Positions 1,563-60,056 of a stretch of DNA of 64,000 nt are shown in pieces. Made by a program: the position numbers and the translations under genes. The notes beneath the pieces were generated by a model. That model did not search any database. It saw only the letters and a list, made by a program, of their open reading frames with translations, and had not been told where the DNA came from. Numbering within the stretch: the first letter of the stretch is position 1; each line of letters opens with the position of its first letter. The stretch is from a virus. Location of the stretch: positions 64,001-128,000 of IMG/VR virus record IMGVR_UViG_3300031951_000015. One strand, written 5' to 3'.

Positions 1563-2357
1563 TCATACCATTTCTCTCATGCTTTTGTCAATCCCTCTAT
1601 TATTTTGAAATCTTGAGAGGGCATTATAAGTTGAAATATGCCCTGTAATGAGACATCTCCATTTGATTTTGTTTTGTTTTTTAGCATTTTCACTTCTTTG
1701 TTCTTTTGTCAATCCACATATACCTATCTTAAATTCTTTACAAGTATTTCCTTGTTTTTTACCTCCTGCTATTCTTGCTTTTTTCATATCTTCATCATTC
1801 ATTCCAAATAAACCTTTACCTTCTTCATACAATTTTTTACCTGCTATTTTTCCACCATTACTACATATTTCCATTTTTCTTTCTTCTGCCAATCCATATA
1901 TTCCCACTTTATTAATTTTGTTTATTTTTGATGCCTCTTTACCACCTTTTGAAAGAGATTCTTGTTTTAAATATTTTCTTGCATTTTTTGCATTTTCTAT
2001 TCTTTGGTATTCACTAAATGAATGAATACCCTTTTTACTATCTCTAACACTTATTCCATTCTGCCTTTTTATTGATATAGAATAAGAACCTCCACATCTT
2101 TCATTAAGGCAATAAGAATCATTAAGAACTGGTTTTATCAATCTATCTTCAAGTTTTCTACATTCTTCATAACCTTCATCAGTATAATCAAATACTTCTA
2201 ATATTTGTTTCTTTGGAGTATAAAGTTCCCAACACCACTTATTTGTTATTGGAGAACCCCAGTATTCCTCATCAAATACTTTTTCTTTCTTACTTCCATA
2301 ATAGTAGTAAGGAACTTCTTCAAAGGTAATTTTGTATGTGTAGATACGTGGTTGCAT
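1563..2357 (-). CDS. Free-standing GIY-YIG-like (Seg-type) homing endonuclease with repeated basic GGK modules
   Basis: N-terminal IYTY-x9-YYYG..., YWGS, conserved E and LNE; Lys/Gly-rich repeats; AT-rich; own late promoter. Confidence 0.7.
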   Translation of the reverse strand: MQPRIYTYKITFEEVPYYYYGSKKEKVFDEEYWGSPITNKWCWELYTPKKQILEVFDYTDEGYEECRKLEDRLIKPVLNDSYCLNERCGGSYSISIKRQNGISVRDSKKGIHSFSEYQRIENAKNARKYLKQESLSKGGKEASKINKINKVGIYGLAEERKMEICSNGGKIAGKKLYEEGKGLFGMNDEDMKKARIAGGKKQGNTCKEFKIGICGLTKEQRSENAKKQNKIKWRCLITGHISTYNALSRFQNNRGIDKSMREMV

Positions 2358-2384
2358 AGTTCTACTCTAATTTGCTCGCATATC

Positions 2385-2392
2385 TATTTATA
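2385..2392 (-). promoter_or_regulatory. T4-type late promoter TATAAATA for the endonuclease
   Basis: tatttata on the plus strand 27 nt before the ATG. Confidence 0.8.
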
Positions 2393-2394
2393 TT

Positions 2395-2447
2395 AAAAAG
2401 GAGGGACTTTCACCCCCCCCTCCCGATAAGTGCGAGCAAATCAGGTA
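2395..2447 (-). ncRNA. Putative ~53-nt two-hairpin sRNA (copy A)
   Basis: Preceded by CTAAATA (2452-2458); stem CCUGAU/AUCGGG with loop UUGCUCGCACUU; G-rich/UCCCUCC-UUUUU terminator; homologous to 59550-59601. Confidence 0.6.
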
Positions 2448-2620
2448 ATATTATTTAGTGCCATTTAATCGATCCTCACATTTAGTATAAAAAGTTCCAT
2501 TTACATAACAAGACTTACCTGCTTCATAGTATTTTACCACAGGTATTTGTGTTCTTGGATATTCTACCACATTTTTTACATGACAGAATAGATTATAACC
2601 ACAAATAAGAGTTTCAAGCA

Positions 2621-27046: not shown

Positions 27047-27328
27047 TAGGAGCGGCGAGACTTGAACTCGCATAGCCGAAGCCGACGGATTTTCTTACCA
27101 CTACGACTTTCGCCGCCTCATAGAGTTTGTGGTCTGGACTATACCTTCACCATATCTTGTGATTTAGGTGCTCCCCGTCTAGTCTCTACACCTTCATCTT
27201 TCGATGCTTGGCTCGGTATTGCCATTTTACAGGTTTCACCGAATTTGAGGAGTTACACTCATGAGGTTTCCCAAATGAGGCTCAATTTTACATAAGTCCG
27301 TTGTGTCTACCAATTCCACCACGCTCCC
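27047..27328 (-). tRNA. trnL: tRNA-Leu(UAA) interrupted by a group I intron
   Basis: 5' exon GGGAGCGTGGTGGAATTGGTAGACACAACGGACTT (27328-27294) + 3' exon AAAATCCGTCGG...GCGAGTTCAAGTCTCGCCGCTCCTA (27093-27047); anticodon stem ACGGA/TCCGT. Confidence 0.9.
27094..27293 (-). ncRNA. Group I intron (trnL-UAA type), 200 nt, no ORF
   Basis: Inserted after U34, ends in G; ATTGAGCC internal guide, AAATTCGGTGAAACC, GGCAATACCGAGCCAAG, GTGTAGAGACTAGACGG, AAGGTATAGTCC core elements. Confidence 0.88.
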
Positions 27329-27371: not shown

Positions 27372-27445
27372 TGCAGGTTGTGGGGATCGAACCCACCTTA
27401 GCCGAATTATGAGTTCGGTGCTTTCAACCAGAGAGCTAAACCTGC
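27372..27445 (-). tRNA. tRNA with CAU anticodon (Met, or Ile2 if lysidine-modified)
   Basis: GCAGGTT acceptor stem, CCGAA-CTCATAA-TTCGG, GGTTCGATCCC T-arm. Confidence 0.88.
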
Positions 27446-27449
27446 ACGA

Positions 27450-27521
27450 TGGGAACAGCGGGAGTTGAACCCGCGCTAAGCACTTATAAGGTGCCCGCTC
27501 TAACCATTAAGCTATGCTCCC
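27450..27521 (-). tRNA. tRNA-Ile(UAU)
   Basis: GGGAGCA acceptor stem, GGCAC-CTTATAA-GTGCT, GGTTCAACTCC T-arm. Confidence 0.88.
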
Positions 27522-58887: not shown

Positions 58888-59514
58888 TTATTTATTGGTT
58901 TGTTTAGACCATCTTTTATTGGCAGCATCACTTAATTTTTTTCTTGTTTCCTCTGTAATATTGCAAATACGTCCCAATACAAGTCCTTCAGATAGTTTTT
59001 CTTGAACTTTTATTCTCATTATTCTATGATTCTTTTTTGTTTTTGGGTCATACATCCAAACTAAATCCAGTTTTTTAAGTGTTTGTTTTCTTTTTATTGA
59101 ACTTTCTTCTGTAAAAACTTGAAGTGCTCTTGCTCTTCTAATCTTCTCTCTTGCACTTTCATTTAGAAAAAATTTACCTTTTTTAACTTTACTCATTTTT
59201 TCTTTTGTTTCTTGAGATGTAACTGCACCCTCTCTCGTAAATTTAGTCGAAGTTTGTTTTGCCCTATTAGCAAAATGTGAGTTAAGAGCAATATCATAAA
59301 AATTATGCAACTTTATTTCTGCACGAATTGCATCCTTTCTTGTTTTAAACGTTTCGATAATTACTTTTTGAGTGGGATTAAATGTTTTATCGTGAAATGA
59401 TCCAAAATAGTTTATATCTTGTTCCGGTAAGCAATTGCAACTTCTACACCCAATATACCCCCTACCCCACTCTTCATAAGAATAATAGGTATAATGATAC
59501 TTCTTATTAGACAT
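58888..59514 (-). CDS. GIY-YIG-like homing endonuclease with NUMOD3-like motifs
   Basis: HYTY-x9-YIG.R, YFGS, AEI.LH, F.N.A; SQETKEKMS and TEETRKKLS. Confidence 0.82.
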   Translation of the reverse strand: MSNKKYHYTYYSYEEWGRGYIGCRSCNCLPEQDINYFGSFHDKTFNPTQKVIIETFKTRKDAIRAEIKLHNFYDIALNSHFANRAKQTSTKFTREGAVTSQETKEKMSKVKKGKFFLNESAREKIRRARALQVFTEESSIKRKQTLKKLDLVWMYDPKTKKNHRIMRIKVQEKLSEGLVLGRICNITEETRKKLSDAANKRWSKQTNK

Positions 59515-59539
59515 TTCTTTACCATTAGGACCGCATATG

Positions 59540-59547
59540 TATTTATA
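59540..59547 (-). promoter_or_regulatory. Late promoter TATAAATA for the endonuclease
   Basis: tatttata on the plus strand. Confidence 0.8.
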
Positions 59548-59549
59548 TT

Positions 59550-59601
59550 AAAAAGGAGGGACTTACACCCTCCTCCTGATAAGATTGCGGTCCATCAGGT
59601 A
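59550..59601 (-). ncRNA. Putative ~52-nt two-hairpin sRNA (copy B)
   Basis: ATAAATA promoter at 59606-59612; stem CCUGAU/AUCAGG with loop GGACCGCAAUCUU; GGAGGG/CCCUCC-UUUUU terminator. Confidence 0.62.
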
Positions 59602-59615
59602 TTAATATTTATCAT

Positions 59616-59639
59616 AAAAAAAGAGGGGTAGAACCCCTC
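59616..59639 (-). terminator. Intrinsic terminator
   Basis: GAGGGG-ttcta-CCCCTC followed by T7. Confidence 0.82.
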
Positions 59640-59645
59640 AGTTTA

Positions 59646-60056
59646 TCATTCACCTGCTGGTGGTTCGGGAGTAAAGAGATCCCAAGCACCTGCTTCTTCA
59701 TCCCAACGATAAAATGAACGTGCTTCAATCTCCGCCTCGGTGAGTGCAGGAGCAGGTCCTACTGGTGATTCCCAATCAGCAGTTTCTTCATTCAGAATCC
59801 ACGAAGCAAATGGTTGTGGTGGAATGAAAGCATCAAGAGTTTCATTGTAAGAGTAACCAATACCTGCATAGCGAACTCTCATATTGTTATTGTATGAGGT
59901 TTGCTTCCAGTTGGTATCAGCACCTAGGAGTTTCTTACAAAATGCAACTCCGATTTCTTCTACTTCTACTCCATTAGAATCAGAAGTATCTTCGTTACTC
60001 ACAACAATGACTTGAGTAACAACGTTGTTTTCATCTAGTTGTGCAAAATGTGCCAT
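59646..60056 (-). CDS. Conserved fibre-associated protein (MAHFAQLDENN family)
   Basis: W.QTSYN...R.RYAGIG...DAFI.P.P..SW. Confidence 0.8.
   Translation of the reverse strand: MAHFAQLDENNVVTQVIVVSNEDTSDSNGVEVEEIGVAFCKKLLGADTNWKQTSYNNNMRVRYAGIGYSYNETLDAFIPPQPFASWILNEETADWESPVGPAPALTEAEIEARSFYRWDEEAGAWDLFTPEPPAGE

What the first reader, a model, noticed from the sequence alone, without database searches (positions are those of the whole stretch)
59515..59613. Copy B of the sRNA cassette shows compensatory change of loop and target
Seen: the scaffold cgcatat(g/c)tatttatattaaaaaggagggactt(a/t)caccc is nearly identical to 2377-2415, with gataag and atcaggta also conserved. The loop is GGACCGCAAUCUU and the leader reads AUGCGGUCC (8-bp match, 59586-59593 with 59528-59535), versus UUGCUCGCACUU / AUGCGAGCAAAU in copy A. 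The unit is insulated by an upstream terminator (59616-59639), so the sRNA would need its own ATAAATA promoter (59606-59612). The two nucleases are highly divergent, yet the non-coding scaffold is conserved. Inference: covariation points to selected, pair-specific recognition in a mobile sRNA plus nuclease module, rather than simple duplication.
Basis: partly seen in the sequence, partly recalled or inferred. Interest (0 to 1): 0.85.

Follow-up and report, generated by a model that had tools for sequence, protein, structure and literature searches.

The report
Homing-nuclease control cassette with matched RNA arms
A roughly 110-base portable control unit sits in front of selfish DNA-cutting genes in freshwater cyanobacterial viruses; an upstream RNA arm pairs with the nuclease messenger's leader using a different matched sequence in almost every copy, which extends a trick known from phage T4 and may also release a small antisense RNA, though that RNA has not been shown.

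Summary
Copy B (59504-59612, minus strand) belongs to a large cassette family, with 101 distinct copies retrieved here.

The cassette reads, in order:
- [A/C]TAAATA box (P1), then 5 nt
- hairpin 1, which carries a variable arm
- a G+C hairpin followed by a U-run
- TATAAATA (P2)
- a leader complementary to the arm
- a homing-endonuclease gene

The arm and leader pair over 12-15 contiguous bp in most copies. In copy B the pairing is 8 bp plus 3 bp. There are 40 arm types, every pair shows compensatory changes, and no Rfam family matches.

The core design is the known T4-type mask: a late promoter nested between two arms that cover the ribosome site. Dassa et al. 2009 saw such hairpins in marine metagenome loci.

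Two things are added here:
- P1 is almost invariant (100/101 copies). It has fixed spacing and a pyrimidine/purine start.
- A terminator-like hairpin follows the arm.

Together these would release a roughly 50-nt RNA able to pair in trans. That RNA is not shown; the RNA data available were contigs only. Selected orthogonality is also not shown, because the arms vary no more than the spacers do.

This scan has already reported the same module on other genomes, with the same verdict. It is a new variant of a known kind.

The parts
59616..59639 (-). Intrinsic terminator of the upstream 136-aa gene (stem 59623-59639, T-run 59616-59622). It is not part of the cassette.
   Evidence: Phage Bellamy has a terminator followed by ATAAATA at the homologous spot.
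59606..59612 (-). P1: an ATAAATA late-promoter-type box. The predicted +1 is the A at 59600.
   Evidence: TAAATA is present in 100/101 cassettes. The spacer is 5 nt in 96/101, position -1 is a pyrimidine in 98/101 and +1 is a purine in 101/101. [A/C]TAAATA lies 8-45 nt before ORF starts in 52-58% of its occurrences in this genome, against 0-11% for control heptamers. Transcription is not shown.
59550..59600 (-). Predicted ~51-nt RNA: hairpin 1 plus a terminator-like hairpin plus U5. Equally, this is the 3' end of any upstream transcript that stops here.
   Evidence: The fold is -20.8 kcal/mol with z = -3.4 and forms two hairpins. The RNA has not been detected.
59575..59599 (-). Hairpin 1: stem CCUGAU (59599-59594) with AUCAGG (59580-59575), and loop GGACCGCAAUCUU (59593-59581).
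   Evidence: The stem is 90.6% paired across 101 cassettes, with 23 double-change cells and 0/500 shuffles reaching that. These columns were not part of the model's structure.
59586..59593 (-). Variable anti-leader arm, GGACCGCA.
59550..59574 (-). Terminator-like hairpin: AGGAGGG (59574-59568), loop (59567-59561), CCCUCCU (59560-59554), and U-run 59554-59550.
   Evidence: This helix covaries across subfamilies whose stems are entirely different, and a T-run is kept in all of them. The simple scan does not flag it here.
59540..59547 (-). P2: a perfect T4-type late promoter, TATAAATA. The predicted +1 is the G at 59534.
   Evidence: The -12 to -6 geometry follows PMC1524935 and the motif follows PMC2984593.
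59528..59535 (-). Leader arm UGCGGUCC, complementary to the anti-leader arm. In the predicted read-through fold a further GGU (59521-59523) pairs with ACC (59598-59600).
58888..59514 (-). 208-aa homing-endonuclease-like gene with a GIY-YIG-like N-terminus and a NUMOD3 motif.
   Evidence: phrog_314 'homing endonuclease', E = 2.6e-13. NUMOD3, E = 6.6e-4. Related DNA lies in S-PM2 p178, beside F-CphI.
58889..58895 (-). ATAAATA overlapping the nuclease stop codon, 27 nt before the next gene's ATG (58861). It is the likely late promoter for the downstream fibre-like gene.
   Evidence: Such a box lies near the stop codon in only 13 of 80 cassettes.
2349..2458 (-). Copy A of the cassette: P1 CTAAATA 2452-2458, arm 2431-2444, P2 2385-2392, leader arm 2367-2380, ATG 2355-2357, gene 1563-2357.
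   Evidence: The read-through fold is -42.5 kcal/mol with z = -6.8.

Best explanation
This is a self-contained expression-control cassette that travels with free-standing homing-endonuclease genes of T4-like freshwater cyanophages.

How it is built:
- An upstream arm sits in hairpin 1 and pairs with the first 8-15 nt of the nuclease mRNA leader.
- In most copies the pairing runs to position -8, next to a weak SD-like GAG, which would block ribosome access.
- The perfect late promoter P2 lies between the two arms. Messengers started at P2 therefore lack the masking arm and can be translated late.
- Any RNA coming from upstream is either stopped at the terminator-like hairpin or, if it reads through, folds into the masked form. 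This is the T4 I-TevI / Aeh1 mobE logic.

The added layer: the cassette also carries its own late-promoter box P1, placed so that transcription would start at the base of hairpin 1, with a terminator-like hairpin right after the arm. The arm is therefore probably also released as a ~50-nt RNA that can pair with P2 messengers in trans and throttle nuclease synthesis.

What is shown and what is inferred:
- Shown: the pairing (by covariation), hairpin 1, the motif conservation and the portability.
- Inferred: translation repression, read-through, P1 activity and trans action.

My odds: the mask acts at least in cis, about 0.85; a P1 RNA is made, about 0.65; it regulates in trans, about 0.45.
For: Pairing:
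- Arm-leader complementarity is 12-15 contiguous bp in about 75 distinct cassettes, against mostly 5-8 bp (at most 10, one 15-bp exception) in about 30 chance pattern matches.
- A structure model recovered 107 copies. 97.7% of cells pair and all 20 pairs carry double-sided changes (397 cells). 0 of 500 shuffles reach this, and slid controls give 45-57% paired.
- There are 40 arm types. Cognate cofold energy averages -14.7 kcal/mol against -2.9 for non-cognate pairs. The three cassettes in this genome do not cross-pair.

Predicted folds:
- Read-through RNA adopts the long helix around the terminator hairpin.
- P2-started RNA is nearly unstructured.

Promoters:
- P2 is TATAAATA in 100/101 copies. 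The arm begins 4-5 nt after it, at the predicted start (geometry from PMC1524935).
- P1 conservation, spacing and pyrimidine/purine start, plus genome-wide enrichment of the motif before ORF starts.
- P1 is present whatever lies upstream, including tRNA ends, ORF stop codons and terminators.

Other support:
- The hairpin 1 stem covaries even though it competes with the long helix for CUGA, which fits a free-RNA state.
- Precedent: PMC2988022 for the T4 mask, and PMC2677866 for hairpins with TATAAATA before metagenomic endonuclease genes.
Against: - No transcript ends, no small RNA and no translation data exist. The metatranscriptome material was assembled contigs and left the nuclease gene of this phage uncovered.
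- In copy B the contiguous helix is only 8 bp and ends 13 nt before the AUG. Masking there rests on a predicted extra 3-bp ACC:GGU contact.
- The internal hairpin of copies A and B, and of L028 and L040, fails the simple terminator scan. Its U-run is only 4-5 long, so termination efficiency is unknown.
- Two tandem promoters of the same temporal class make the purpose of a cis mask against P1 transcripts unclear.
- The SD-like element is weak, so 'RBS sequestration' is partly assumed.
Confidence: 0.7

Rival explanations
1. Cis-only mask. The arm works solely inside read-through transcripts, exactly as for I-TevI, segB and Aeh1 mobE. The P1 box is then a stop-codon provider, a recombination microhomology or a retained host promoter. 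Any short terminated RNA is an inert by-product.
For: - This is the established mechanism for this gene class (PMC2988022), and Dassa et al. interpreted similar hairpins this way (PMC2677866).
- The helix extends into the hairpin 1 stem and reaches -8.
- Upstream ORFs very often end in the TAA of P1, or at +4. The 5' end of the cassette has stops in all three frames.
- At the copy B site, phage Bellamy has a terminator followed by ATAAATA without a cassette, so this particular P1 could be a native promoter.
- A 260-nt contig from an RNA library spans a relative's whole cassette. This is a weak hint of read-through, or of DNA carry-over.
- Arm variability is no greater than in the spacers.
Against: - P1 is kept in 100/101 copies, with a fixed 5-nt spacer, pyrimidine at -1 and purine at +1, while the spacer letters drift. 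This holds in at least 40 different contexts, including after tRNA genes.
- The hairpin 1 stem is maintained by compensatory changes although it competes with the mask.
- If the terminator-like hairpin works, the two arms would usually end up on different molecules.
Confidence: 0.35
2. A dedicated trans-acting small RNA, analogous to a type I antitoxin, is the main regulator, and the loop/leader 'addresses' diversify under selection so that co-resident cassettes stay orthogonal.
For: - The promoter-hairpin-terminator anatomy.
- The arm is displayed mostly in a 13-15-nt loop.
- Cognate and non-cognate energies are well separated, and this genome's three cassettes are orthogonal.
- Arms on one contig are never identical (0 of 32 pairs).
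Against: - The 0/32 result is expected by chance with P = 0.27.
- Arm columns carry 1.25-1.42 bits of entropy, and spacers carry 1.0-1.9 bits. Neutral drift with compensation is therefore enough to explain the variation.
- The same arm type serves several nuclease families.
- The RNA has not been detected.
- The cis mechanism is not excluded.
Confidence: 0.25
3. A DNA-level element. The two arms would be an inverted repeat used for recombination or cruciform formation, or recognised by the nuclease, and not an RNA helix.
For: - The arms form an inverted repeat around a ~50-bp core.
- The cassettes are mobile and are shuffled between nuclease genes.
Against: - G-U wobble pairs are tolerated on the sense strand (for example 71 G-U cells at one pair). 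In DNA, or on the other strand, these would be mismatches.
- The arm ends sit precisely at the predicted transcript starts.
- The repeat sequence is variable while the core is conserved, which is the opposite of transposon ends.
- Unrelated nuclease families share the same arms.
Confidence: 0.03

Closest known systems
Late-promoter-within-hairpin translational masks of T-even homing-endonuclease genes: I-TevI, I-TevII, I-TevIII, segB, and Aeh1 mobE (review PMC2988022; Gibb and Edgell 2007 and 2009 as cited there)
   Same: - A helix covers the ribosome-binding region of a homing-endonuclease gene.
- A TATAAATA or CTAAATA late promoter lies between the two strands, so late transcripts lack the 5' strand.
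- The purpose is to keep a selfish nuclease silent in transcripts that come from upstream.
   Different: - Here the helix is long-range (about 50 nt apart) and encloses a terminator-like hairpin.
- The 5' strand is itself displayed in a small covarying hairpin.
- The unit starts with its own conserved late-promoter box.
- The unit is portable and shared by many nuclease families, with about 40 matched arm sequences.
- In copy B the main helix stops 13 nt before the AUG.
Hairpins upstream of free-standing endonuclease genes in 'fractured gene' loci of ocean metagenomes (Dassa et al. 2009, PMC2677866)
   Same: Environmental phage-like loci. [quoted passage not shown]
   Different: - That paper describes a single regulatory hairpin by analogy with Aeh1.
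- In the main text searched here it does not mention a terminator, and nothing retrieved described an upstream promoter box, an inner hairpin or a possible released RNA.
- I could not see its figures or supplement, so identity with this family is not verified.
Cis-encoded antisense RNAs of type I toxin-antitoxin and plasmid copy-control systems (textbook knowledge, not tested here)
   Same: A short promoter-to-terminator RNA presents a loop that is complementary to the translation-initiation region of a neighbouring, potentially harmful gene. The pairs diverge into non-cross-reacting variants.
   Different: - The RNA is encoded in tandem on the same strand upstream of its target, not antisense to it.
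- Complementarity comes from an inverted repeat.
- The target is a DNA endonuclease of a lytic phage.
- The RNA itself is hypothetical.
PeSL promoter/stem-loop cassettes of T4-type phages (Arbiol et al. 2010; recalled from memory, not retrieved)
   Same: Short mobile regulatory cassettes that combine a promoter and a stem-loop and flank shuffled ORFs in T4-type genomes.
   Different: PeSLs carry early promoters and have no arm-leader complementarity. They are not specifically tied to endonuclease genes.

Membership tests
T4-type late-promoter-in-hairpin mask of homing-endonuclease genes | An RNA helix involves the ribosome-binding region of the endonuclease gene. | tested here: inconclusive
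   Across the family the helix is 12-15 bp and ends at -8, overlapping an SD-like (U)AGAG. In copy B the 8-bp helix ends at -14, and only a predicted 3-bp ACC:GGU contact reaches -9 to -7.
T4-type late-promoter-in-hairpin mask of homing-endonuclease genes | A late promoter is nested between the helix strands, so late transcripts lack the 5' strand. | tested here: met
   TATAAATA is present in 100/101 copies. The 3' strand begins 4-5 nt after it, which is at the predicted +1 (geometry from PMC1524935).
T4-type late-promoter-in-hairpin mask of homing-endonuclease genes | Upstream (read-through) transcripts that contain both strands exist and are poorly translated. | not testable with these tools
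   Only assembled RNA contigs were available. One contig spans a relative's cassette, but DNA carry-over cannot be excluded.
Cis-encoded regulatory small RNA (antisense, type I antitoxin-like) | The RNA has its own promoter. | tested here: met
   Met at the sequence level only. P1 TAAATA is present in 100/101 copies, with a 5-nt spacer in 96/101 and pyrimidine at -1 / purine at +1. The motif is enriched before ORFs in this genome. Activity is not shown.
Cis-encoded regulatory small RNA (antisense, type I antitoxin-like) | The RNA has a defined 3' end at an intrinsic terminator. | tested here: inconclusive
   A covarying G+C hairpin followed by 4-5 U is present in every subfamily. The simple scan flags it only in the third genomic copy and not in copy A, copy B, L028 or L040.
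Cis-encoded regulatory small RNA (antisense, type I antitoxin-like) | The RNA is detected as a discrete species and acts in trans. | not testable with these tools
   Searches gave contigs only, with no cover of the cassette of this phage.
Any Rfam family | A match to a curated covariance model. | tested here: not met
   No family reached its gathering score at the cassette. The best permissive hits had E = 0.16-8 and lay far below threshold.
Homing endonuclease (product of the downstream gene, copy B) | Recognisable nuclease and DNA-binding modules. | tested here: met
   phrog_314 'homing endonuclease', E = 2.6e-13, and a NUMOD3 hit just under the Pfam cut-off. For copy A the support is indirect: there is no hit for the protein itself, and its relative in L015 hits phrog_314 at E = 4.5e-4.

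The most novel reading that the evidence does not exclude
Each cassette would encode a real ~50-nt late small RNA that represses its own nuclease messenger in trans through a private 8-15-nt 'address'. Homing-endonuclease genes would then travel with a built-in, naturally orthogonal antisense throttle, a type I antitoxin-like partner for a DNA nuclease. The roughly 40 natural address pairs would be a ready-made set of non-cross-reacting riboregulators.
Probability: 0.4. Interest if true: 0.75.

Novelty: new variant of a known kind. Interest (0 to 1): 0.55.

Why it matters
Homing endonucleases must be expressed just enough to spread without damaging their carrier. How free-standing ones are controlled outside the T-even coliphages is largely unknown.

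This family shows that one portable RNA module serves at least four recognisable nuclease families, plus several unassigned genes, in uncultured freshwater cyanophages. Its helix is proven by dozens of independent compensatory changes.

If the upstream promoter is active, this would be the first case I could find in the searchable literature of a homing-endonuclease gene carrying its own antisense small RNA. The matched arm pairs would then be of practical use as orthogonal regulators.

If the promoter is not active, the module is an elaborated and well-documented instance of the T4 mask, and it would merit an Rfam entry.

Tried and rejected
- **Rfam**: no family matches.
- **Public RNA runs**: nine metatranscriptomes hold parts of the stretch, but all are kept as contigs.
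  - Contigs of this phage cover only the upstream 136-aa gene (59651-60056), not the cassette or the nuclease gene.
  - Pieces that lie on the cassette core come from relatives.
  - One 260-nt contig spans a relative's whole cassette.
  - None of this shows transcript starts, ends or strand, so it decides nothing.
- **Named phage genomes**: only Synechococcus phage S-SRM01 carries this scaffold subtype, so I found no published transcriptome to consult.
- **Empty-site comparison for copy A in S-SRM01**: the downstream gene is homologous but the upstream ORF differs, so the left boundary could not be fixed.
- **Bellamy comparison for copy B**: it has a terminator plus ATAAATA at the same place without a cassette. 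For this copy, P1 may therefore coincide with a native promoter.
- **Diversifying selection**: arm columns are not more variable than spacers.
- **Within-contig distinctness of arms**: 0 of 32 pairs identical, P = 0.27, not significant.
- **Cassettes bracketed by late promoters**: a promoter box lies near the nuclease stop in only 13 of 80 cassettes, so I rejected this as a general rule.
- **Simple terminator scan**: it does not flag the internal hairpin in copy A, copy B, L028 or L040. It flags copy C and the upstream terminator of copy B.
- **Supplement of Dassa et al.**: not held.
- **DNA-level inverted-repeat reading**: rejected because of strand-specific G-U pairs.

Full report
**What is at the coordinates**

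Both copies are read on the minus strand. For copy B the sense strand carries, in order:
- the terminator of the upstream 136-aa gene (59639-59616);
- ATAAATA (59612-59606), then five bases;
- ACCUGAU-GGACCGCAAUCUU-AUCAGG, which is hairpin 1 (59600-59575);
- AGGAGGG-UGUAAGU-CCCUCCU followed by U5 (59574-59550);
- AA, then TATAAATA (59547-59540), then four bases;
- UGCGGUCC (59535-59528), then 13 bases;
- the ATG (59514) of a 208-aa gene.

Copy A (2458-2349) has the same order, with CTAAATA in place of ATAAATA and the arm pair CUGAUUUGCUCGCA / UGCGAGCAAAUUAG.

The shared 23-mer core occurs exactly twice in the window, where none is expected by chance. The two proteins show no significant similarity.

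**It is a large family**

- An exact 21-mer from the core found 31 further viral contigs.
- A pattern built only on P2 and the ribosome-site box found more than 118.
- About 75 distinct true cassettes among these have 12-15 contiguous complementary bases between arm and leader.
- About 30 chance matches to the same pattern lack the cassette hairpins; their best complementarity is mostly 5-8 bp, at most 10 apart from one fortuitous 15-bp match.
- An alignment-free descriptor scan of 1.45 Mb recovered 90 distinct cassettes, and the set used for cofolding, these plus copy B, carries 40 arm types. The scan used any TAAATA followed by a leader complementary to a stretch 25-75 nt upstream.
- The same genome holds a third cassette, 6.2 kb past the window, with a different hairpin, CATAAATA and a 10-bp pair (GGUUGGUGAC / GUCACCAACC) in front of a different endonuclease-like gene whose N-terminus resembles the NUMOD3/phrog_655 class.

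**Covariation**

A covariance model built from 24 copies retrieved 107 cassettes, 101 of them distinct.
- On that alignment 97.7% of cells in the long-range helix and the terminator-like hairpin pair.
- All 20 pairs have changes on both sides (397 cells).
- No shuffle out of 500 reaches any of the measures, and sliding the partner by 1-3 columns drops pairing to 45-57%.
- That alignment is fitted to the model, but the alignment-free counts say the same.
- The stem of hairpin 1 was not in the model. It is 90.6% paired, with 23 double-change cells and 0 of 500 shuffles.

Hairpin 1 and the long helix compete for the same CUGA. The fourth base covaries with both partners. The element therefore has two selected states.

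**Promoter boxes**

- P2 is TATAAATA in 100 of 101 copies, and the leader arm starts 4-5 nt after it.
- P1 is TAAATA in 100 of 101 copies, preceded by A or C.
- P1 has a 5-nt spacer in 96 copies, a pyrimidine at the fifth base in 98, and a purine at the sixth in all 101.
- With the published geometry (CTAAATA from -12, PMC1524935; NATAAATA in cyanophages, PMC2984593), P1 would start an RNA at the first base of hairpin 1. P2 would start the messenger at the second base of the leader arm.
- In this genome ATAAATA and CTAAATA lie 8-45 nt before an ORF start in 58% and 52% of occurrences, against 0-11% for control heptamers.
- P1 is present whatever lies upstream: ORF ends, tRNA 3' ends, terminators.
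- In more than half the cassettes the upstream ORF stops in the TAA of P1, or four bases later. The box therefore also supplies stop codons.

**Folding**

- The predicted 51-nt RNA of copy B folds into two hairpins (-20.8 kcal/mol, z = -3.4).
- The read-through RNA forms the arm-leader helix around the second hairpin (-31.3 kcal/mol for copy B; -42.5 kcal/mol with z = -6.8 for copy A).
- The P2-started leader is almost unstructured.
- Cofolding every predicted small RNA with every leader gives -14.7 kcal/mol for cognate pairs and -2.9 for non-cognate pairs.
- The three cassettes of this genome give -17.4, -12.5 and -6.9 on the diagonal and no better than -3.0 off it.

**Genes served**

- Downstream proteins include GIY-YIG with NUMOD3, NUMOD3-only homing endonucleases, HNH_3 with AP2, HNH, and a few proteins without hits.
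- Copy B's protein hits phrog_314 'homing endonuclease' (E = 2.6e-13).
- Copy A's protein has no hit itself, but a relative has a weak one.
- One arm type can precede several nuclease families, and one nuclease family can have many arm types. The matching is therefore between the two halves of the cassette, not between cassette and enzyme.

**Comparison with what is known**

The review of T4 mobile elements describes exactly the core logic for I-TevI, I-TevII, I-TevIII, segB and Aeh1 mobE. A stable structure sequesters the ribosome site in transcripts from upstream, and a late promoter is positioned so that late transcripts lack the inhibitory strand (PMC2988022).

What I did not find described:
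- the conserved upstream promoter box;
- the inner hairpin;
- the terminator-like hairpin inside the long helix;
- the scale of matched arm variation.

Searches for a small RNA linked to homing endonucleases returned only the unrelated S-PM2 antisense RNA. No Rfam family matches.

**Cis or trans**

| For a released RNA | Against, or neutral |
|---|---|
| P1's near-perfect conservation and start-site geometry | No RNA evidence |
| Selection on hairpin 1 | The U-run is short, and the simple scan flags the hairpin only in copy C |
| A terminator-like hairpin that would normally separate the two arms onto different molecules | Arm columns are only as variable as spacers |
| | Arms on one contig always differ, but this is not significant |
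| | At copy B's site phage Bellamy has a terminator plus ATAAATA without a cassette, so that P1 may double as a native promoter |

I therefore keep the T4-type mask as the secure part and the small RNA as a likely but unproven addition.

**Earlier work in this scan**

The same module was already followed up on other genomes (e1-5377470, e1-5338414, e1-5340345, e1-5338407), with the same reading. My analysis agrees with it and adds:
- the start-site statistics for P1;
- the independent test of hairpin 1;
- the cognate versus non-cognate energy matrix;
- the negative tests for diversifying selection.

**Verdict**

- This is a new variant of a known kind.
- Interest is moderate. It would rise if the ~50-nt RNA is found.

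Noticed in passing
window 27117-27303 (-), with tRNAs at 27372-27445 and 27450-27521 (-): A group I intron (Rfam RF00028, 58.5 bits) lies just downstream of two tRNA genes. I did not determine which gene it interrupts.
   Followed up: no
G000:C1 about 134,200-134,300 (L144:960-1100, minus strand), 6.2 kb beyond the window: A third cassette in the same genome. It has CTAAATA, a different hairpin, a terminator flagged by the scan, CATAAATA, and the 10-bp pair GGUUGGUGAC/GUCACCAACC, in front of an MNYLRTYCNLIR-type endonuclease gene.
   Followed up: partly
window 58889-58895 (-): An ATAAATA box overlaps the stop codon of the copy B nuclease, 27 nt before the next (fibre-like, 511-aa) gene. This resembles the T4 habit of embedding promoters for downstream genes in endonuclease genes. 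Only 13 of 80 cassettes have such a box.
   Followed up: partly
L028:3440-3480, L119, L015:6100-6150: Several cassettes begin directly after what looks like a tRNA 3' end (GGTTCGAATCC...CCACGCC). tRNA clusters therefore seem to be a recurrent landing place.
   Followed up: no
L146 (S-PM2 136215-138272): The copy B nuclease is related at the DNA level (about 70% over 258 nt) to S-PM2 p178. That hypothetical gene overlaps the end of F-CphI, between psbA and psbD, and has no cassette in front of it.
   Followed up: no
L041 (five cassettes), L023 and L103 (three each): Single contigs carry up to five cassettes, each with a different arm and often a different terminator stem. These phages are heavily colonised by endonuclease genes.
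   Followed up: partly
window 59554-59574 and many loci: The purine run before the second hairpin (AGGAGGAGGG) can pair with the following U-run. This lengthens the stem and hides the U-tract from the simple terminator scan. The run is also a perfect Shine-Dalgarno-like sequence, and I do not know whether that matters.
   Followed up: no
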